Shown here: piece after piece, positions 879-22,190 of the stretch | Layout of the letters: each line of letters opens with the position of its first letter | How positions within the stretch are numbered: position 1 is the first letter of the stretch | Source of the DNA: the human T2T-CHM13v2.0 reference genome, Homo sapiens | Direction of reading: 5' to 3' | Length of the DNA stretch: 64,000 bases | Assembly: GCA_009914755.4 (NCBI GenBank) | Contig: CP086569.2 | Coordinates: 21,664,001 to 21,728,000 of the forward strand | The notes under the pieces: model-generated | Seen by the model: the letters and a program-made list of their open reading frames with translations, nothing else | Databases searched by the model: none | What the model was told of the DNA's origin: nothing | Position numbers and translations under genes: made by a program

Positions 879-1020
879 GAATTCTTTTATTAGTTCTGGT
901 TTTGATGAATTCTTTAGGTTTTTCTGTGTGTAAAATTATGTTGTCTACAAACGAAGATAATTTCACTTCTTCATTTCCAGCTTGGAAGTATTTTATTTTT
1001 TGTCTTGCCTCATTGTGAAG
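879..1020 (-). mobile_element. Old L1 ORF2-derived fragment (antisense), left remnant of the L1 that the ERV sits in
   Basis: tgtctacaaacgaagataatttcacttcttcatttccagc is a diverged version of the L1 antisense motif tcatctgcaaacagggacaatttgacttcctcttttcctaattgaat (compare 5750-5810 and 34180-34230). Confidence 0.55.
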
Positions 1021-1140
1021 CGGGATTTAAGGAACCAGAGAGACCAGATGGAGTGCAAGAAAGTGTTTGTTTTAAGGTGTACACCAGCCTAGCAGACATT
1101 TGTCCTAAAGGTGAGCCCAGAACAAAGAAAACGAGTCCCT
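1021..1140 (-). repeat. Truncated 3' LTR remnant (first ~120 bp of U3), next to a PPT-like aaaaggga on the minus strand
   Basis: cgggatttaaggaaccagagagaccagatggagtgcaagaaagtg...gtgtacaccagcctagcagacatttgtcctaaaggtgagcccagaacaaagaaaacgag aligns to 10289-10396. Minus-strand ...cttaaaaggga lies just inside at ~1137-1150. Confidence 0.65.
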
Positions 1141-1144
1141 TTTA

Positions 1145-2100
1145 AGCATTTTGAGGCAGGTACTACATGAAGCAGGCTTACAGAAGCAAGAACAAAAGGC
1201 TGCTGTGACACTTTTGTAACATGTCTTACATCTCTTTGAGAACTTGGTTTGCAGCTTATGCTTATGTCTTGGGACTTTGCAGCTGTGCAGGGAAGAAAGA
1301 AGTAGGAGTTTATAAAGCCAACAAAATATGTGGAGGATAGACATGGTTAATGGTTCTTGGAACAGACAGTTAATATTCTCTTCTGACTTTAATTTCGGGG
1401 GGCTACTTACATTCTTCTTAGCTTTGGTTAATACAGAAATTCATTCTATGAACTGTTGTTATTTTTCTAACTATTATTATAATTTTTACTATTATGACTT
1501 ATGTTATTATTCTGTTATTTTCACAATTTCCCCCTTCATCCCCACTTTGGTGCTCTGTATTAATGTTGGTTAATAGAGCACTACAATTGTTTATTTCTTC
1601 TTGGGCTGATACATATTCTTCTTGGGGCAAAACCTGATACTTAGTCAATGCCATTTTTCGGGCAATAGTGTGTCTGGCCATGATTGCCTCTATAGTTGAC
1701 TGAACAATTCTGATGAAAAGAGGTAAGAGACAAGGAAGAATTAGGCAGAAATAGTAACAACATTAGTGTGTATAATAGAAACATGATTACACTACACATG
1801 GGCATGGGAGGCTTTCTCCTGGACAAAGGGATTGGCAACATTTGTAGTAACAGCATAATAACAAGATAATTAATACTGATAAAATCACAACTAGACTTAT
1901 GAATTTTATCCATGTCTACTTATCTATTGCTTATTCCTAAAGCTTCGGCTGTGGGTAGACCAGTCAGCTTTCAGTGTGTGACTTCAGCAGGGCTTGAAGA
2001 CTCCTTAAGCTTCAGTCGTGCATAGACTGACCAGCCTCCGGTGTGGTCAGAGCAGGGCAGTTCTTCTCAGCAGTGGCTTGGTTTTGCCACAAAATCAGTC
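1145..2100 (-). pseudogene. env: env remnant, heavily truncated (~1 kb where ~2 kb is expected)
   Basis: Position between the pol end (2100) and the 3' LTR remnant. The minus ORF 1641-1913 has hydrophobic TM-like stretches (IMLLLQMLPIPL). There is no intact SU/TM. Confidence 0.4.
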
Positions 2101-3737
2101 ATGTTGGATGATCTGCGTCCTGCTGACTGGTCCACTGGTCCTGGGCAGCCAGCTTCAGTTGGCTGTGGCGAATCCAGGGTATGATAGCTGCAACTTCAAC
2201 AGCAGTGGGAGTAGACAAGATTACAGTGTGGGTCCCATCCCATGTGGGCCGTAAGGTGGTTGGGTTCCATTTGTTAACCCAAACAAAAACTCCAGGTATA
2301 AAAGGGTGGACTGGGTCTGTCAGGCTAATAGGCATCTTTTCTTGAACCCAGTCATGGACCTTCTGCATAGCTTGCCCTAAGGCCTGCATTTGCCTTCTTA
2401 AAGTTAGTTCTCCTAGTTCCCAGAGATCACCTATAATCTGATTTATAATTGGGGGTGGTTAGAGAACACAATCTCATAGGGTGAATACCCAGTTAATTTG
2501 GTAGGGGTATACCTGACTCAGAGAAGGACCATGAGCAAGACCTGATACCACCTAAGATGAGTTTCTTGACAAAATTTCTTCAGCAGCTGCTTCAATGTCT
2601 GGTTAATCCATTCTGCCTTCCCTGAGCTCTGTGGGTGGTAGGCTGTGTGTAATTTCCACTTTATTTTTGCAGCTGAGTTAGTTGCTGTACAACTTCAGCC
2701 ACAAATGCCAGGCCATTGTCTGATCCTAAGGACAGAGGCAGTCCAAATGTAGGAATAATGTCCTTTAGCAATACTCTGGTTACTTCTAGGGCTTTCTGTG
2801 TCCTAGTGGGGAATGCTTCAACCCATCCTGAGAAATTGCAAACAAACATCAGGCACTGTTAGCCCCTGCTCGGGCAGTTTGGTGAAGTCCACAAGCAAAT
2901 TCTCACAAGGTGTCGCTCCTATCTCTTGAATTCCTGGGGGCCGAGTTGGCCCTTGCCTTGGATTGTTCAGAGCACAAGTCATGCATTGCCACAAACAGCT
3001 TAAGTGATAGCAATAAGGTGTGGGACATAAAAGTTCTGTACTACAAGAGTCTCTAAAGCAGTTTTTCCCATGTGCGATCCTTGATGAAACTTTTACAAAT
3101 CAGGGGGCTATTGTTTCTGGGATAGCTAGCCTTCCATCTGAGAACTTCCACCAGCCTCCTATGTAACTTCCGCTCTCTTGTTCAAACCAAGTTCTCTCAT
3201 TTGGAGAGTAGTGTGGGGTTTCAGTTAAGGAAGGCTCTAGTAGAAGTGGCAGGGTTGGGGTCTACTTTTTAGTACCTAGGTTGGACATAGCTGCTTGCTT
3301 GGCTTCTCTCTCTGCCTTTCTATTTCCTTGTGCCTCTATGCCACCACCTGTCTGGTGTCCTTTACAGTGAATGACTGCCATCCTGTCTGGAGCCCACATA
3401 GCATGTAAGAGCTGTAAAATTTCCTCTTTATTTTTAATTTCTTTCCCTCCAGCAGTTAAAAGTCATCTTTCCTTGTAAATAGCCTCGTGGGCATGCAATA
3501 TGGCAGAAGCATACTTTGAGTCAGTGTAAATGTGGACTGTTTTTCCTTTGGCCACCAGCAGGGCTCTAGTTAGAGCTATAAATTCTGCTTTGTGTGCTGA
3601 GTGAGGTCCCAGCAGGGAGGGCCTGTGCCTCAGCTACTGAACTTAAGAGTCTCCACTCCTTGCCCGGCTTGGTGGATCCCCTCTGATGTGAAACTGCTCC
3701 CATCTGTGAAATATTCAACATCTCGTACCTCAAAGGG
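2100..3737 (-). pseudogene. pol: pol: RNase H + integrase portion
   Basis: Minus ORF 2099-2389: HPFIPGVFVWV...WDGTHTVILSTPTAVEVAAIIPWIRHSQLK, matching the MLV IN C-terminus [30 protein letters not shown]. Minus ORF 2661-2849: FSGWVEAFPTRTQKALEVTRVLLKDIIPTFGLPLSLGSDNGLAF (IN core). RNase H: ...HIYTDSKYA... on the minus strand at 3250-3737. Confidence 0.85.
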
Positions 3738-3743
3738 CTGGTC

Positions 3744-5834
<2,091 letters not shown>

Positions 5835-5845
5835 AGGACTGGTCC

Positions 5846-7440
5846 TTTAAATCCTTCTGGCTCAAGAATATTTTGTCCACAACGTCTGCACAGTAGTGCT
5901 GGGGAAATTGGTCATGCAGCTTGGGCATTTCCATGGGCAAAAGAGTAGCCAGGTTTAGGATATTTACAGTTTCTAAATTTATATTTGGATTTTCAAATGA
6001 GAGCCCTTGGTATCTTAATATTCTTGGATTAGATAGCCAGTGATATCCTTTTTGACCCATTAGGAAAATTATGGTATGTGGCACCCGTATTATTAGCCTT
6101 TGGGCTAGAGTTAACTTGGTTGCATCCTCGGCTAGCGTGGCAGTGGTGGCCAATGCCTTCAAAGAGGGGGGCCATCTGAAGGCCATAAAATCTAGTCATT
6201 TTGACAAGTAAGCCACTGGTCGATTCCACAACTCTACCATTTGAAATAAAACTCCTGTGGCCATTCCCTTTCTCTGATGGATGTAGAGAAAGAATGGCTT
6301 TATCAGGTGAGGCAGTCCTAAGGCTGGAGCCTGGATTAAAGCTTTCTTGATGTTGTTGAAAGCTTTTTCCTGTTCAACTCCCCACAGAAGAGGTTCTTTT
6401 TCTCCCCACTTGGTGGCTTAATACAGTGGTTTTGCCATAAGTGAAAAGTTTGGTATCTAAATGTGGCACAACACAGCTACCCCTAAGAATTCTCTGATCT
6501 GCTGACATGTTACAAGTGATGGAAGAGCACAAACAGCCTGTTTTCACTCACTGCCCATTTCACATTGCCCTTGAGTTACTAGAAACCTAGATATCTTGCT
6601 CCTTGTTCACAAATCTGGGCCTTCTTCTGGGACACCTTATAATTTGCTTTACATAGTAGATGCAGGAGGCCCTCAATGCCCTGGTAGCAATCTTCCTTAG
6701 TTGGGGCTGCAAACAAAAGATCATCTATGTGCTGCAACAGGACACATTTGTCATTTGGCGAGACAAAATCCTTGAGATCAGACACTAATGCCTCCTCAAA
6801 GATAGGAGGGGAGTTTTTGAACTCTTGTGGAAGTCGCCTCCAAGTATACTGTGTTTCTCCCCCATCTGAATGCAAAAATAGATTGGCTTACTGGAGTTAG
6901 CTTGAGGCAAAAGAAAGCATCCTTTAAGTCTAAACAAGTAAACCAAGCAGCATGAGCAGGTATCTGACTCATCATTGTATATCAGTTGGGTACCATGGCA
7001 TGCAAAGTAACAGTGACTTTATTTATGGCCCATAGGTCTTGCACATGTCTAAATTCACCAGATGGTTTCTGCACCAGTAAGAGAGGTGTGTTCTCTTACT
7101 GGTTGACCTACAGAGTGACTTACATTTTCTTATAATTCCATGTTCTAACAGCTGGCTCATGTGTTTGTTCATACCTCATACTGCCTCTATGGACACCTGG
7201 TACTGTGGATCACACACTGGTGACACACCTGGATTCAGCTCTACTACCACTGATGCTTGGGGTATAGCTAGTGCTGGTGGATTGTCTTCTGCCACACTTC
7301 AGGTATCTTCAGAACAAGCCTGTCCATTAGTCTGCCCATAAACTTGGACAGTTGATATGCTGCTTTCATGTATAGCCTGCATTCCTCAGTTTTTGGCAAG
7401 GTAAGGGTTAATGCCATGGCTTTCAGACGACTCAGATCTA
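5846..7440 (-). pseudogene. pol: pol: reverse transcriptase domain
   Basis: Minus ORF 6579-6875: YTWRRLPQEFKNSPPIFEEALVSDL...VLLQHIDDLLFAA (YXDD). Minus 5846-6190: LNLATLLPMEMPKLHDQ, matching MLV LNPATLLPLPEEGLQH. The revcomp of 6230-6560 gives ...REFLG...QEKAFNNIKKALIQAPALGLP...RPVAYLSK. Confidence 0.88.
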
Positions 7441-7453
7441 GAGTCATGTTTCC

Positions 7454-7738
7454 TTATGACCTGAAAGAACTTTGAGCTTGGAGTTTCTGAAGTATGTCCC
7501 TCCCTAACAGAGGCACCGGACAGTTTGGCAGATATAGAAATTCATGCCAGACCTCCTGACCTCCAATAACACACCTTCTGGACTGAAAGAAAGGCCTTTT
7601 TTCTGACACTCTGGTTGCCCCAACTATAGTAGCATAGTTTTTAGATAGTGGCCCCACTGGCCATGTCATCACTGAGTGCTCAGCACCAGTATCTACCATA
7701 AAGTCCATCTGTTGGTCCCCTACCTCCATAGAGACCAA
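7454..7738 (-). pseudogene. pro: pro: retroviral aspartic protease
   Basis: Minus ORF: MVSMEVGDQQMDFMVDTGAEHSVMT...CPVPLLGRDILQKLQA (DTGA active site, LLGRDIL flap). Confidence 0.8.
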
Positions 7739-7759
7739 GGGCTCCCGGAGGCCCAGAGA

Positions 7760-9400
7760 GATCGAGCTTGGTCTGTCTCAGTCCTCATATTCTTCAATTC
7801 CTGCCAAGCCGACCAAGTCAGCTTCTTGCTTCAAAATGCAATGGCTAGCAGCTGCTGGCCTTTGCCATGTCTCAGGTCCTTGGCTGTTGCCTCCATCCTT
7901 TTCTGTTTCTGTACATTCATCCTTCTAATTCCCTTTTCTGTTTGCATCTCACACACTGATCCCTCTCAAGCCTAGCCAGCCCTCTTGCCCTGGCCTAGCT
8001 TGTCCTCTTCCACAACCATGTCCACAACCATTTCTACATCCACATCCTTTCACAAATCCAGTCTCTCTTTCTACCATGGCAGCAGCCAACAAATCAGCCT
8101 TTTTCTTAGCTTTGGCATTGCCTGTTCCTTGGTTTCCTCCTCTCAATTAACAAACACCATGGTAGCCACTTGAATAAGCTGGGTGATATTCATACCTTCA
8201 AACCCTTCCAACTTCTGAAGCTTTCATCTGATACCACCTTGTGCCTGGCCCACAAATGCCCTGTTAATCATGCACTGGTTCCCTACAGCCTCTAGGTCAA
8301 ATGGAGTGTGAAGGCAGTATGCTTCACAGAGCCTTTCATAAAATTTACTATGACTGTCATCAGCCTTCTGGTGAACCTCTGAGACCTTTCCCATATTCAT
8401 TGTCTTTTTTCCTCCTGCCTTTATTCCGTTAAGGAGTGCCTTTCAATACCATTGCAGGTTTTGTAACCCTTCTGCCTGGTTTTGTCTCCGGTGCATACTG
8501 CTTGACATTGTTTGTGCCTTCTGGTTCATTGCTTTCTAACAACTGGAGGGCCACTTGTGCCACTCTACGACATTCCTCCATATTGAATAATGCTAAAAGA
8601 AGTTGTTGACAATCAGGCCAGGTAGGGTTATGAGTCAGAAAGATGGACCACATCAAGTCTGTAAGGGCCTGGGGCTTCTCCGTATAGGAGGGTGTATTCT
8701 GTTTCCAGTTTAGGTCAGTGGTGGAGAAAGGCTAGTAAACAAAAAGACCCTGCCCTCCTCGGATTTGACCTTGTTCATCATGATAAATATAACCTTGTGT
8801 CTCCCCGAGAGGCATCTGCAAAGCTTGGATGCAGCCTGATCTCATTATCCTGAGGTTCTTCCTTAGTCTTTACAGACAGGGGCTCTAACTCTTCCCTGCC
8901 AGGTGAAACCTTAAATCACTCTCCTCTGAGCTTTATTCCTCTAGGACCACTTGTTTGGCATCCTGCCTTAGCCTTGCCAGAGATGGATATATTGGGACAT
9001 AGAGAGGTGGAATTTTCCTCTCCTCAGGTCGGGCTTGCAAAACAGGCTTTTTCTGTTCTCCTCGTGGCTTTTTCTTTTTTTCTACAGTCTCTTTGGACAC
9101 TTTTACTGTGTGTAATTTGGCACAGGTTACCAAGGTATTACAGTAGTTTTCAAAACAGACTTGCAGATACTTGGGGCGATTTTCAATGACCCTCAGCCAG
9201 GAGTCAACGTATGGGAACTGATCGGGGTGCCCAGATTGTTCTCCGGTTCCAGTTACTACCCTAAACACACGGCCAATTATCTCCCTATCTATTGTTCCTT
9301 CAGTCGGCCACCTGACATTAAAAAAAGGCCAATCCATTTCACAGAGAGTTCTCAATCTCTGAGAGTCAATTTAACTTCATTAATCTCCATTAAAACCTTT
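7760..9400 (-). pseudogene. gag: gag (MA, p12 with PPLY late-domain motif, CA, NC remnant); frameshifted
   Basis: Minus ORF 8933-9355: EMDWPFFNVRWPTEGTIDREIIGRVFRVVTGTGEQSGHPDQFPYVDSW (MLV MA-like: AEWPTFNVGWPRDGTF...GHPDQVPYI), then ...PPLYVPIYP. Minus ORF 8429-8656: HNPTWPDCQQLLLALFNMEE (CA major region). Minus ORF 7949-8146: Cys/His-rich NC-like. Confidence 0.8.
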
Positions 9401-9766
9401 CTTGAAATTTTTCAACATATACTCCAATGCAGTAGCCTTCGAAGCATTTCCTTCCATCTCCAGCCTTGAGAGGCGCATTTGCTGTCACTTTCACTCCTGG
9501 ACTGACCAGACGGGGTCCTATTACGGGAAGTCTGGGGGTTGCTTAGCCAGGAGAATACCTTAATCCTGTCACAGCCAGCTGCAGCCGTGAAGCAGCTCCT
9601 ATTGGCTGTATGCAATGCCCTAGATCTGGCTCGTCCCACACTCGCTTTGGAACACACAGTCTGTGCTAAGAGATCTGTGTCTCCCCACGTCACATCCCGA
9701 GTTGGCCTCTGCTCAGACCGTCTCTTTCACATACTTTCACACACCTCCCCATTTCCCGTACTGGCC

Positions 9767-9885
9767 TTTAGTTAAAGCAGCGAGCCCCCGCCACTTTCAG
9801 TTTCCTTGAATCTCCTCTGTTCTCTCTCTTTCTTTAGTTAAAGCTGCGAGCCCCTCTTGCCACTTTCATTTCCTTTTTCCGACCG
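9767..9885. repeat. ~66-bp tandem duplication in the ERV LTR-end/PBS region
   Basis: tttagttaaagcagcgagcccccgccactttcagtttcc (9767-) is repeated as tttagttaaagctgcgagcccctcttgccactttcatttcc (9832-). The minus strand reads gaaagtggcgggggctcgc, a partial match to the tRNA-Pro PBS TGGGGGCTCG. Confidence 0.6.
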
Positions 9886-10396
9886 ACCTATAAGCCTCTC
9901 TCGCATTCGATGTCGGTTGGAGCATGAGTTTCATCTGAATCAAGGGGCCTCTCTTGTTGTCCCCAGTCCCTCTGGGTCGGACTAGTTGTCTCACCCTGGG
10001 AGGTGATCACGCTCCCTGGGGACGGGTCCTGCCTTAAGGCTCAGACCCTTACTGCAGTTCATATGTCTGCACAGAGCTCCTGACACTGTCCAGCAATCTC
10101 CTTTGCCGGTTCTGTTGCGCTGTCAGGAAGGGCACCAGGACAGAGGAGGACCAATTCCCTTATGGGCTGAAGTCCTCCCGTGGTGCCGAGGGGTTCAGGT
10201 CTCCCCTCTTCTGGGGCCTCAGTCCCACAGGCAAAGGATACAGAAATCTGCTGTCTCCAGTTCCCAGGTTTTGGTACCAGATGAAGTGGGATTTAAAGAA
10301 TCAGAGAGACCGGACAGAGTGCAGAAAAGTGCTTAAGGTGTACACCGGCCCAGCAGACATGTGTCCTAAAGACTGAGCCCAGACAAAGAAAATGAG
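9800..10396 (-). repeat. ERV 5' LTR (boundaries approximate; inner boundary uncertain because of the tandem duplication)
   Basis: The outer 110 bp (10289-10396) match the 3' LTR remnant at 1021-1140. The unrelated L1 sequence starts at ~10397. Confidence 0.55.
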
Positions 10397-11307
10397 TTAA
10401 TTTTGGTCTTCTATATATAACTTCTTAAAATAGAAGTGTACATTTTTGAAATACATTTTGTTTTCTCATGTTTTGATTTAATGCCATAAATTTACCTGTC
10501 AGCACTGCTTTTACCTTCATCTGATCTGAAGTATTGTATTTTCATGTTTATCCAGCTCAGTGTATTGTTTTATTTTCCTTGACAATTTTTTTTAAATCCT
10601 CTCGTTATTAAAGGATTCTTGTTTGACCCAAGGATTATCTTCCCAGTGTATGGAGATTCTCCTGTTTTTTTCTTTGTCTTACTGATTTCTACTTTAGTTG
10701 TATTGTGGTTGGGAAACACACTGGATTATTGTAAGTCTTTTATGTCTGTTGAGTTTTCTTTTATGGCACAGGAACCCTGAAAGCAATGTGTATTTGGCAT
10801 TGGGTGGAACGTTCCATTAATGTTGATTCAATTCTTTTGGTTGATGGTGTTGCTGAGTCCTCTTCTTTGTTGGTTTTCTTTCAAGTTGTTCTGTAAATTG
10901 AGAAAGGATGTTGTCCTTTCCAACTGTAATTGTAGATTTGTCTTTTTCTTTTATATTTTTAGGTTTTACTTCACATATTTTCAGTTCTGTTTCTTGCTGC
11001 ATGGACAGTACAGATTGTGGTTTCTTCTCGGTTACTAGTTTCATTTATCATTATATAATATCTTTTACATCATTGAAAATTTTCTTTTCTCTAGTCTACT
11101 TTATCTGGTGAATATGTCTATCCACTCCTGCTTTCTTCTAATGTCTGCATGATACATTTTTCTTTTTTACTTTTGAACTTTTCATCCTGTCTCTACTTTT
11201 ATGTGAAAGTGAGTTTCTTATAGATAGTATACGTGTGGGGCATGTTTTAAAATTCACACTGCTAATCTCCATATTTTTGTTGTATTTACACTATTTAGAA
11301 TAGTTTA
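10397..11307 (-). mobile_element. Old L1 (L1P/L1M-like) ORF2 3' region, antisense; right part of the L1 that hosts the ERV
   Basis: ttggcattgggtggaacgttccattaatgttgattcaattc..gttgatggtgttgctgagtcc...ctttccaactgtaattgtagatttgtc parallels L1 antisense ggtggagtgttctataaatgtcaattaggtc...tgttcaagtc...ctccaactataattgtggatttgtc. Confidence 0.75.
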
Positions 11308-11372
11308 CTTTTTTTTGTTTGTTTTTTTTGTTGTTGTTGTTGTTGTTTTTTTTTTTTTTTTTTTTTTTTTTT
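11308..11372. repeat. Poly-T/(GTT)n simple repeat (expanded Alu tail)
   Basis: ttttttttgtttgttttttttgttgttgttgttgttgttttttttttttttttttttttttttt. Confidence 0.9.
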
Positions 11373-11668
11373 GAGACGGAGTCTCGCTCTGTCGCCCAGG
11401 CTGGAGTGCAGTGGCATGATCTTGGCTCACTGCAAACTCCACCTTCTGAGTTAAAATGATTTTCTTCCCTCAGCCTCCTGAGTAGCTGGGACTACAGGTG
11501 CATGCCACCACGCCTGGTGGTGCATTTTTTTTTTTTTTGTATTTTTAGTAGAGACAGAGTTTCACCGTGTTAGCCAGGATGGTCTCGATCTCCTGACCTC
11601 GTGATCCTCTCACCTCAGCCTCCCAGAGTGCTGGGATTACAGGCATGAGCGAACCATCGCACCCAGCC
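11373..11668 (-). mobile_element. Alu SINE, antisense
   Basis: gagacggagtctcgctctgtcgcccaggctggagtgcagtggc...cctcccagagtgctgggattacaggcatgagcgaaccatcgcacccagcc. Confidence 0.92.

Positions 11669-20760: not shown

Positions 20761-22190
<1,430 letters not shown>

What the first reader, a model, noticed from the sequence alone, without database searches (positions are those of the whole stretch)
1021..10396. Nearly complete MLV-like (class I) HERV provirus with clearly readable gag-pro-pol, nested in an old L1
Minus-strand translations align collinearly with MLV Gag MA/p12/CA, PR (DTGA), RT (YXDD, RPVAYLSK, LNPATLLP), RNase H and IN (GWVEAFPTRTQKA...LGSDNGLAF; WDGTHTVILSTPTAV). The F-K-N-S-P RT motif (LPQEFKNSPPIF) is closer to MLV than the HERV-H/W version I recall (LPQGFRDSP). 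This suggests a HERV-E/HERV-T/ERV3-like lineage rather than HERV-H/W. env is reduced to ~1 kb. Only ~120 bp of the 3' LTR survives, next to an intact-looking PPT. The L1 sequence on both sides (879-1020 and 10397+) looks like the same antisense L1, with ~1 kb missing across the junction. That implies a deletion removed env distal, most of the 3' LTR and some flanking L1.
Basis: partly seen in the sequence, partly recalled or inferred. Interest (0 to 1): 0.55.

Follow-up and report, generated by a model that had tools for sequence, protein, structure and literature searches.

The report
Degraded ERV3-like provirus inside old L1

Summary
Confirmed: a class I (MLV-like) provirus lies on the minus strand, about 10397 to 1016. 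Pfam finds Gag_MA, Gag_p30, RVP, RVT_1, RT_RNaseH_2, RNase_H, rve and MLVIN_C in the retroviral order. Both flanks are old L1 ORF2 in the same orientation, with about 1.04 kb of L1 missing between them.

Corrected:
1. The ~115-bp repeat shared by the two ends is the 3' terminus of the LTR. At 10282 it abuts a primer-binding site; at 1016 it abuts L1. So the 5' LTR is the truncated one.
2. The 3' LTR is complete: 1538-1016, 523 bp, TGAAGGGGG...CCCGCTTCA. A related LTR from another contig aligns over its whole length.
3. One ~1.45-kb deletion removed L1 ORF2 codons ~333-677 plus ~410 bp of the 5' LTR.
4. env has an internal ~2-kb deletion. Its start and its membrane anchor/tail remain.
5. A 5'-truncated L1 (5832-3748, 16-bp target-site duplication) splits pol.
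6. The RT box reads HIDD. The genes carry over 25 stop codons and about 10 frameshifts.

Lineage: closest to HERV3, HERV1 and HERV-I, further from HERV-E, and below 80% identity to every consensus I could test. The primer-binding site is Phe-type, unusual for this clade. Ordinary finding, low interest.

The parts
10398..11330 (-). Old, strongly diverged L1 flanking the 5' side of the provirus: ORF2 from about residue 20 to about 330-332. An Alu poly(A) tail lies upstream at 11331 and beyond.
   Evidence: phmmer against PDB L1 ORF2p gives residues 291-352 for the junction-proximal part. tblastn with ORF2p gives 292-309 at 10511-10458. Three-frame translation.
10282..10397 (-). 5' LTR remnant: only the last 111-116 nt of the LTR, ending ...CCCACTTCA. 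The junction with L1 lies within 10392-10398, because ACTCA could come from either side.
   Evidence: Direct repeat with 1016-1133. 95 of 109 aligned sites identical, K2P 0.146.
10262..10279 (-). Primer-binding site TGGTACCAAAACCTGGGA, 2 nt after the LTR end. Phe-type.
   Evidence: Sequence. My count from that sequence: 15 of 18 match the tRNA-Phe complement TGGTGCCGAAACCCGGGA. That complement is confirmed as tRNA-Phe in PMC2063832. The variant tggtgccaaaacctggga is listed as F/GAA in Vargiu 2016 Table S6. All three differences are transitions, two at CpG.
9458..10261 (-). Long untranslated leader, containing the clade-typical motif TCCTTTGCCTGTGGGACT.
   Evidence: Aligns to the HERV1 consensus leader at 74.6% and to the HERV-I consensus. 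The motif recovers seven related LTR-PBS-leader contigs.
7778..9457 (-). gag: ATG at 9457-9455, MA, p12-like region, CA, and one degenerate NC zinc finger near 7960-7900. Ends at TGA 7780-7778, in frame with pro.
   Evidence: Gag_MA at 9370-8936 and Gag_p30 at 8731-8227. Gag-pro boundary ...EYED*DRPSS. Zinc-finger remnant read against the HERV1 gag consensus.
7457..7777 (-). Protease (MVDTGAEHSV).
   Evidence: PF00077 RVP, E 1.2e-15.
5849..7456 (-). RT, from its N-terminus through the connection domain, up to the L1 insertion point. Contains LPQEFKNSPPIF, LLQHIDDLLF, RPVAYLSK and LNLATLLP.
   Evidence: RVT_1 and RT_RNaseH_2. E 7e-52 to XMRV/MoMLV RT structures. tblastn with HERV1 and HERV3 Pol.
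5833..5848 (-). Upstream copy of the target-site duplication of the nested L1: AAAGGACCAGTCCTTC.
   Evidence: Both copies are homologous to the same pol site in the HERV1 and HERV-I consensuses.
3748..5832 (-). Secondary insertion: a 5'-truncated primate L1 (ORF2 residues 678-1275, 3' UTR and A-rich tail), same orientation as the provirus.
   Evidence: tblastn with ORF2p gives 678-1074 at 5834-4647 and 1057-1275 at 4699-4013. A 294-residue clean stretch matches ORF2p at E 2e-164, which I estimate at about 87% identity. Tail and junctions.
3732..3747 (-). Downstream copy of the target-site duplication: AAAAGACCAGCCCTTT.
   Evidence: It matches the upstream copy at 13 of 16 positions.
2099..3731 (-). 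Rest of pol: RNase H (3633-3265) and integrase (about 3099-2102).
   Evidence: RNase_H, rve and MLVIN_C. tblastn with HERV1 and HERV3 Pol.
1549..2098 (-). pol-env spacer and env remnant: the start of env (about 1955-1800) joined to the TM membrane anchor and cytoplasmic tail (1762-1574). About 2 kb (SU and the TM ectodomain) is missing.
   Evidence: Nucleotide alignment to the HERV1 consensus stops at its position 7031, window 1809. Beyond that, only HERV1 Env residues 734-785 of 786 and HERV3 Env residues 644-694 match, at 1729-1574.
1539..1548 (-). Polypurine tract AAAGTGGGGA, immediately upstream of the 3' LTR.
   Evidence: Sequence. The HERV1 consensus has the homologous AAAGGTGGGGGGA|TGAAG. 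The L057 LTR homology starts right after it.
1016..1538 (-). Complete 3' LTR, 523 bp: TGAAGGGGG...CCCGCTTCA.
   Evidence: Aligns over 1538-1022 to the 5' LTR of an independent related element, L057 (score 537). Aligns over 1350-1038 to positions 17-362 of the 385-nt HERV1 LTR consensus, score 167 against 27 +/- 4 for shuffles. My reading: the terminal inverted repeat matches at 8 of 9 positions.
879..1015 (-). Old L1 flanking the 3' side: ORF2 from codon 678/679 to about 724, cut off by an Alu at 878 and below.
   Evidence: phmmer and tblastn place it at ORF2p 682/683-711. DNA alignment to the nested L1 starts at 1015.

Best explanation
A gammaretrovirus-like virus of the ERV3/HERV1/HERV-I clade integrated, in sense orientation, into ORF2 of an old L1 at codon 678/679. 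It used a tRNA-Phe-type primer-binding site. The locus was then damaged by four independent events, none of which has a known function.

1. An internal env deletion of about 2 kb. It may already have been present in the infecting genome.
2. A standard L1 target-primed insertion into pol, just upstream of RNase H. It has a 16-bp target-site duplication and is 2,085 bp long.
3. One deletion of about 1.45 kb. It removed L1 ORF2 codons ~333-677, the upstream 4-bp duplication and the first ~410 bp of the 5' LTR. The junction has at most 5 nt of ambiguity or microhomology (ACTCA/ACTCG).
4. Tens of millions of years of point mutation.

Shown directly: the gene content and order; which LTR is complete; the primer-binding site; the L1 insertion and its duplication; the L1 coordinates of both flanks. 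Inferred: the order of events, that a single deletion produced the 5' junction, and the age. LTR-LTR K2P of 0.146 on 109 sites suggests roughly 30 My, with wide error. The element is a fossil. Without U3 in the 5' LTR it cannot be transcribed as a provirus.
For: - Domains in order, and RT matching MLV/XMRV at E 7e-52.
- The gag TGA stop is in frame with pro.
- The shared repeat ends ...CTTCA in both copies. At 10282 it is followed by TC plus an 18-nt primer-binding site, and at 1016 by L1.
- The L057 5' LTR aligns to 1538-1022, and the HERV1 LTR consensus aligns to 1350-1038. The inverted repeat is TGAAGGGGG/CCCGCTTCA, with a PPT directly upstream.
- The env C-terminus alone matches HERV1 and HERV3 Env.
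- The nested L1 covers ORF2p 678-1275, with an A-rich tail and a 13/16 target-site duplication that is homologous to pol on both sides.
- The flanks map to ORF2p ~291-332 and 679-711, collinear and on the same strand.
- An exact 142-residue ORF from 5758-6186 is found on a contig from a human-associated metagenome. That fits human DNA.
Against: - No target-site duplication of the provirus can be checked, because the 5' side is deleted.
- The 5' flank is so diverged that tblastn alone gives only E 0.77 for its junction-proximal part. The phmmer hit used a hand-stitched query.
- That the two flanks belong to one L1 rests on collinearity, strand and similar decay, not on a consensus alignment.
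- The 3' L1 flank is only 137 bp before an Alu and the window edge.
- The age rests on 109 sites.
- The family name could not be established: identity is below 80% to each consensus tested.
Confidence: 0.85

Rival explanations
1. The 3' LTR is reduced to ~120 bp next to a PPT, and one deletion removed distal env, most of the 3' LTR and flanking L1. The 5' end is the intact side.
For: Only ~115 bp is shared between the two ends. A purine-rich AAAAGGGA lies just upstream of the shared part at the low-coordinate end.
Against: - The shared part is flush with the end of the LTR in both copies. At the high-coordinate end L1 sequence, not U3, precedes it and a primer-binding site follows it.
- The 410 bp upstream of the shared part at the low-coordinate end aligns to independent LTRs.
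- AAAAGG is a conserved internal LTR motif.
- The env C-terminus and a G-rich PPT are present upstream, at 1762-1539.
Confidence: 0.02
2. The two L1 flanks are different L1 elements, or one L1 that had already been rearranged. In that case no single 1.45-kb deletion occurred, and the 5' LTR was truncated by an event unrelated to the L1 gap.
For: The flanks are short or very diverged, so identity of the element is not proven. The window is packed with L1 fragments.
Against: The flanks share strand, are collinear in ORF2 order, and show comparably low identity to modern ORF2p. One deletion explains both the missing L1 and the missing U3 with a single junction.
Confidence: 0.08
3. The element is an L1-mediated retrocopy of a proviral transcript. 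It would then start inside R rather than at U3, and the L1 gap would be a target-site deletion.
For: The copy starts inside the LTR, as an R-U5-initiated RNA would. L1 activity at this locus is evident.
Against: The 3' end runs through U5 to the terminal CA of a complete LTR with no poly(A) tail. A transcript copy would end at R followed by poly(A).
Confidence: 0.02

Closest known systems
HERV3 (ERV3 / HERV-R), HERV1 and HERV-I (RRHERV-I / HERV15, LTR15): the HERVERI supergroup of Vargiu et al. 2016 (PMC4724089)
   Same: - Pol is 56% identical to the HERV3 consensus and 55% to the HERV1 consensus, against 45% to HERV-E.
- The nucleotide sequence aligns along gag-pro-pol, the leader, LTR R-U5 and the pol-env spacer to the HERV1 and HERV-I consensuses.
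- It shares FKNSP in RT, FSGWVEAFPTRT in integrase, a single NC zinc finger, and a gag stop in frame with pro.
   Different: - Identity is only 66-75% to the HERV1 and HERV-I consensuses. That is below the 80% goal those authors set for group consensuses. The HERV1 consensus rests on two proviruses.
- The primer-binding site is Phe-type. The paper lists R/P for HERV3, P/L for HERV1 and I/P/E for HERV-I.
- The exact Repbase/Dfam family was not determined.
Moloney MLV / XMRV (exogenous gammaretroviruses)
   Same: The same gene order and domain set. RT core matches at E 7e-52. The MLV-type integrase C-terminal domain is present. A gag stop codon is followed in frame by pro. The PPT is followed by TGAAG..., as in the MLV TGAAAG... 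(the MLV sequence is from my own knowledge).
   Different: No intact reading frame, env mostly deleted, 5' LTR lacking U3, Phe-type rather than Pro-type primer-binding site, and a TGA rather than a TAG gag terminator.
HERV-F / HERV-H48 / LTR19 groups (named or marked by a Phe primer-binding site)
   Same: Phe-type primer-binding site. A near-identical string, tggtgccaaaacctggga, occurs in an LTR19-group provirus in Vargiu 2016 Table S1.
   Different: The paper describes HERV-F(A-C) as mostly two-zinc-finger elements, whereas I found one finger remnant. The LTR, leader and coding sequence are HERVERI-like on both sides of the primer-binding site.

Membership tests
Class I (gammaretrovirus-like) endogenous provirus | Gag with p15-type MA and p30 CA | tested here: met
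   PF01140 at E 1.2e-13; PF02093 at E 3e-16 and 1.1e-10.
Class I (gammaretrovirus-like) endogenous provirus | gag and pro in the same frame, separated by one stop codon (readthrough strategy) | tested here: met
   ...GIEEYED TGA DRPSSISLG..., with PR continuing in the same frame.
Class I (gammaretrovirus-like) endogenous provirus | MLV-like RT, RNase H, and integrase with the MLV-type C-terminal domain | tested here: met
   The catalytic box has decayed to HIDD.
Class I (gammaretrovirus-like) endogenous provirus | LTRs beginning TG and ending CA with an inverted repeat; a primer-binding site just after the 5' LTR; a PPT just before the 3' LTR | tested here: met
   TGAAGGGGG...CCCGCTTCA at 1538-1016, PPT at 1548-1539, primer-binding site at 10279-10262, 2 nt after the LTR end. 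Only the 3' end of the 5' LTR is present.
Class I (gammaretrovirus-like) endogenous provirus | Gamma-type Env TM with an immunosuppressive domain and CX6CC | tested here: not met
   That region is deleted. Only the start of env and the TM anchor/tail remain. This is loss, not evidence against membership.
Class I (gammaretrovirus-like) endogenous provirus | 4-bp target-site duplication | not testable with these tools
   The 5' flank adjoining the original integration site is deleted.
HERVERI supergroup (HERV-E, HERV3, HERV1, HERV-I) | Pol and nucleotide similarity highest to members of this supergroup | tested here: met
   HERV3 Pol 56% (1305 bits), HERV1 55% (1269 bits), HERV-E 45% (973 bits). 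The HERV-IP and HERV-ADP consensuses have PQGFTDSP/PQGFTEAP instead of FKNSP. The HERV-H/W/9 consensuses were not compared.
HERV1, HERV-I or HERV3 as a specific group | About 80% or more nucleotide identity to the group consensus (the goal stated in Vargiu 2016, suppl. 2) | tested here: not met
   HERV1 66-75%; HERV-I 66-74%. HERV3 DNA consensus was not tested. The consensuses are low quality (HERV1 rests on 2 canonical proviruses, HERV-I on 3).
HERV1, HERV-I or HERV3 as a specific group | Primer-binding-site type reported for the group (R/P, P/L, I/P/E) | tested here: not met
   The site here matches Phe at 15/18 and Pro at 9/18 (my counts from the sequence). Seven related contigs carry Pro or Arg types. 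Group lists.
HERV-F/H clade | Phe (or His) primer-binding site together with HERV-H/F-type pol and, for HERV-F, two zinc fingers | tested here: not met
   The primer-binding site fits. The RT motif is FKNSP and there is one zinc-finger remnant. The sequences flanking the site are HERVERI-like.
L1 target-primed insertion (the nested element at 5832-3748) | 5' truncation, A-rich 3' tail, flanking target-site duplication | tested here: met
   It starts at ORF2 codon 678 and has an A-rich tail. The 16-bp duplication matches at 13/16, and both copies are homologous to pol.

The most novel reading that the evidence does not exclude
The provirus may represent a HERVERI-lineage (ERV3/HERV1/HERV-I-like) subgroup that switched to tRNA-Phe priming. 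That primer-binding-site type is not listed for this clade in the classification I could read. Separately, a retroviral integration site and an independent L1 5' truncation point fall at the same nucleotide of L1 ORF2 (codon 678/679). This could reflect a preferred break or join site in L1 sequence rather than chance.
Probability: 0.1. Interest if true: 0.25.

Novelty: already known. Interest (0 to 1): 0.1.

Why it matters
It matters little beyond correct annotation. The locus is a typical fossil provirus of a known clade, and any repeat annotation of the human genome would already mask it.

The useful outcome is the corrected anatomy:
- which LTR survives, which bears on any promoter or enhancer reading of the locus;
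- that pol is interrupted by an L1;
- that the env loss and the 5' deletion are separate events.

The Phe-type primer-binding site in an ERV3-like backbone is a small illustration that primer usage is a labile character. It also shows why naming HERVs by their primer-binding site misleads.

Tried and rejected
I used stop-free segments instead.
- A protein homologue search with the RT core returned 19 unnamed fragments, best 75% identity. It gave no help with the family name.
- A search with the plus-strand ORF that overlaps U5 and the primer-binding site, meant to find paralogues with the same site, found nothing.
- The first metagenome DNA scan, for the Phe primer-binding site plus the start of the leader, found nothing. 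The second, on the leader motif, gave 94 stretches. Seven of these were real relatives.
- The exact primer-binding-site string is not in the stored part of Vargiu 2016 Table S1, a file that is truncated in storage. I therefore could not retrieve the locus and its published class.
- HERV-ADP, which has a Phe primer-binding site and one zinc finger, was considered and rejected on the RT motif and on its consensus site.
- HERV-F/H membership was rejected (see the membership test).
- A processed-transcript origin was rejected because the 3' end is a full LTR without poly(A).
- Tandem Repeats Finder found no array in the leader. The two ~40-nt similar stretches I saw by eye at about 9876-9836 and 9806-9768 are not a scored tandem repeat.
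- Gene conversion between the two L1 pieces that share a start coordinate was rejected. Identity there is no higher than elsewhere.


Full report
**What is there**

Three-frame translation of the minus strand between 10400 and 1000 gives stop-free pieces. Pfam assigns them, in order, to:
- Gag_MA (9370-8936, E 1e-13)
- Gag_p30 (8731-8227, E 3e-16 and 1e-10)
- retroviral protease (7777-7457, E 1e-15)
- RVT_1 (6981-6582, best E 4e-12)
- the RT connection domain RT_RNaseH_2 (6417-6199)
- RNase H (3633-3265)
- integrase core (2858-2664)
- the MLV-type integrase C-terminal domain (2458-2102)

A stitched RT core matches XMRV and MoMLV RT structures at E 7e-52. Foamy, Ty3 and lentiviral RTs score far lower. 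Gag ends in TGA at 7780-7778, and protease continues in the same frame (...EYED*DRPSS...). This is the gammaretroviral readthrough layout. So the core observation, an MLV-like gag-pro-pol on the minus strand, is real and far beyond chance.

Two differ slightly: the polymerase box reads LLQHIDDLLF (HIDD, not YxDD), and LNPATLLP reads LNLATLLP. The genes are readable only by homology. The longest stop-free stretch is 145 codons. The HSPs to related consensus proteins contain more than 25 stops and change frame about ten times.

**Which LTR is which**

The only long direct repeat in the region pairs 1016-1133 with 10282-10394. Both copies end ...CCC(G/A)CTTCA.
- At the high-coordinate copy this end is followed by TC and then TGGTACCAAAACCTGGGA. 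That is the position and form of a primer-binding site, so this copy is the 5' LTR. L1 sequence, not U3, lies directly upstream of its ~115 nt.
- At the low-coordinate copy the end abuts L1 at 1015. It is preceded by a further ~410 bp that is also LTR.

Three results support the second point.
- Window 1350-1038 aligns to positions 17-362 of the 385-nt LTR of the published HERV1 consensus. The score is 167, against 27 +/- 4 for shuffles.
- The 5' LTR of an independent related element, contig L057, aligns to window 1538-1022 along its whole length with score 537. I fetched L057 with a leader motif.
- The alignment starts at TGAAGGGGG, the inverted complement of the LTR end CCCGCTTCA at 8 of 9 positions. 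It lies directly after a polypurine tract, AAAGTGGGGA, at 1548-1539.

The 3' LTR is therefore complete: 523 bp, 1538-1016. The 5' LTR has lost its first ~410 bp. The same motif occurs in the HERV1, HERV-I and L057 LTRs.

**The flanks and the deletion**

I verified a recalled L1 ORF2p sequence against PDB entry 8uw3: residues 1-1275 align to 1-1275 at 2926 bits. With it, and with phmmer against PDB, I placed the flanks.
- The 5' flank ends at about ORF2p residue 330-332.
- The 3' flank begins at codon 678/679.
- Both are sense on the minus strand and similarly decayed.

Because the complete LTR abuts L1 precisely at its terminal CA, the integration site was at codon 678/679. A single deletion of about 1.45 kb then removed L1 codons ~333-677 together with the first ~410 bp of the 5' LTR. 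The junction lies within 10392-10398, where ACTCA could derive from either partner. That one event did this is an inference. It is the most economical reading.

**env**

Nucleotide similarity to the HERV1 consensus runs from pol through the pol-env spacer and the start of env, and stops at window 1809. Beyond that, only the last ~50 residues of HERV1 or HERV3 Env match, at 1729-1574. These are the membrane anchor CLILPCLLPL... and the cytoplasmic tail ...KYQ.LPQEEY. env therefore carries an internal deletion of about 2 kb. Its 3' end, the PPT and the LTR are untouched. This event is separate from the 5' deletion.

**A nested L1 in pol**

Between RT and RNase H lies a 2,085-bp L1 at 5832-3748, in the same orientation.
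- It covers ORF2p residues 678-1275, the 3' UTR and an A-rich tail.
- A clean 294-residue stretch matches modern human ORF2p at E 2e-164. I estimate about 87% identity from the printed alignment.
- It is flanked by AAAGGACCAGTCCTTC (5848-5833) and AAAAGACCAGCCCTTT (3747-3732).
- Both copies correspond to the same pol site in the HERV1 and HERV-I consensuses. This is a true target-site duplication of a classical L1 insertion.

The finding as written did not mention this element.

**Lineage**

No repeat library was available. I therefore used the consensus sequences in the supplement of Vargiu et al. 2016 (PMC4724089).
- Pol identity is 56% to HERV3, 55% to HERV1 and 45% to HERV-E.
- Nucleotide identity is 66-75% to HERV1 and 66-74% to HERV-I. 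Alignable regions include the non-coding leader, the LTR and the pol-env spacer.
- The HERV-IP and HERV-ADP consensuses carry PQGFTDSP/PQGFTEAP rather than FKNSP, so I excluded them.

The element thus belongs to the HERVERI supergroup, on the ERV3/HERV1/HERV-I side.

**The primer-binding site**

The site matches the tRNA-Phe complement at 15 of 18 positions. PMC2063832 confirms that complement as tRNA-Phe. All three differences are transitions, two at CpG. The one-step variant tggtgccaaaacctggga is listed as F in Vargiu 2016 Table S6. The match to the Pro-type site is only 9 of 18.

Seven related LTR-PBS-leader contigs carry Pro or Arg types. The paper lists no F for HERV3, HERV1 or HERV-I. 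U5 and the leader on either side of the site are clade-typical. So only the primer-binding site differs, which is the pattern expected from a primer switch. This is a minor curiosity.

**Age and host**

The two LTR copies differ at 14 of 109 aligned sites, 12 of them transitions, giving K2P 0.146. At the rough 2.5 My per percent used by Vargiu et al., this is about 30 My, with a wide error from so few sites. The decayed nested L1 is consistent with an old insertion. An ORF from 5758-6186 occurs with the identical 142-residue sequence on a contig from a human-associated metagenome. The DNA is 99.5% identical over 615 bp. That fits human DNA.

**An unexplained coincidence**

The nested L1 begins (C)AATCAGGTAGG at 5833/5832. 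The old L1 flank begins CAATGAGGCAAG at 1015. A local alignment of the two starts at the first base after retroviral sequence in both. A retroviral integration site and an unrelated L1 5' truncation point therefore fall on the same nucleotide of L1 ORF2. I found no sign of gene conversion and no mechanism. I estimate the chance at about 5e-4 before correcting for the many coincidences one could notice. I treat it as chance.

**Verdict**

Interest is low.

Noticed in passing
window 5833/5832 and 1015: The L1 nested in pol and the old L1 flank next to the 3' LTR both begin at the same nucleotide of L1 ORF2 (codon 678/679). One boundary is a 5' truncation point and the other a retroviral integration site. 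No mechanism was found, and there is no excess similarity that would suggest gene conversion.
   Followed up: partly
window 10262-10279; loci L006, L016, L017, L019, L057, L078, L081: The primer-binding site here is Phe-type in an ERV3/HERV1/HERV-I-like backbone. Seven related LTR-PBS-leader contigs from metagenome assemblies have Pro- or Arg-type sites. This looks like an isolated primer switch.
   Followed up: partly
L019 (OJLT01002012.1), about 208-860 in the orientation of the leader motif: The contig reads env 3' end, PPT, LTR, primer-binding site, leader. This is either two LTRs collapsed into one by the assembler or a tandem provirus sharing one LTR. It resembles the HERV1 consensus.
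   Followed up: no
window 20842-21932 (+), 36272-31837 (-), 57966-53538 (-) and many others: The window is very rich in L1. It holds two near full-length ORF2 regions on the minus strand and a younger 3' fragment that is 92% identical in protein to modern human ORF2p.
   Followed up: no
window about 1-878 and about 11331-11650: Alu elements bracket the locus. At least two or three fill 1-878 and cut off the old L1 after 137 bp. Another, with a long A/CAA-rich tail, interrupts the old L1 upstream of 11330.
   Followed up: no
window about 9876-9836 and about 9806-9768 (minus strand): Two similar ~40-nt stretches in the leader (GAAA(T/C)TGAAAGTGGC...GCTTTAACTAAAG), seen by eye. Neither Tandem Repeats Finder nor the repeat finder reported them.
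   Followed up: partly
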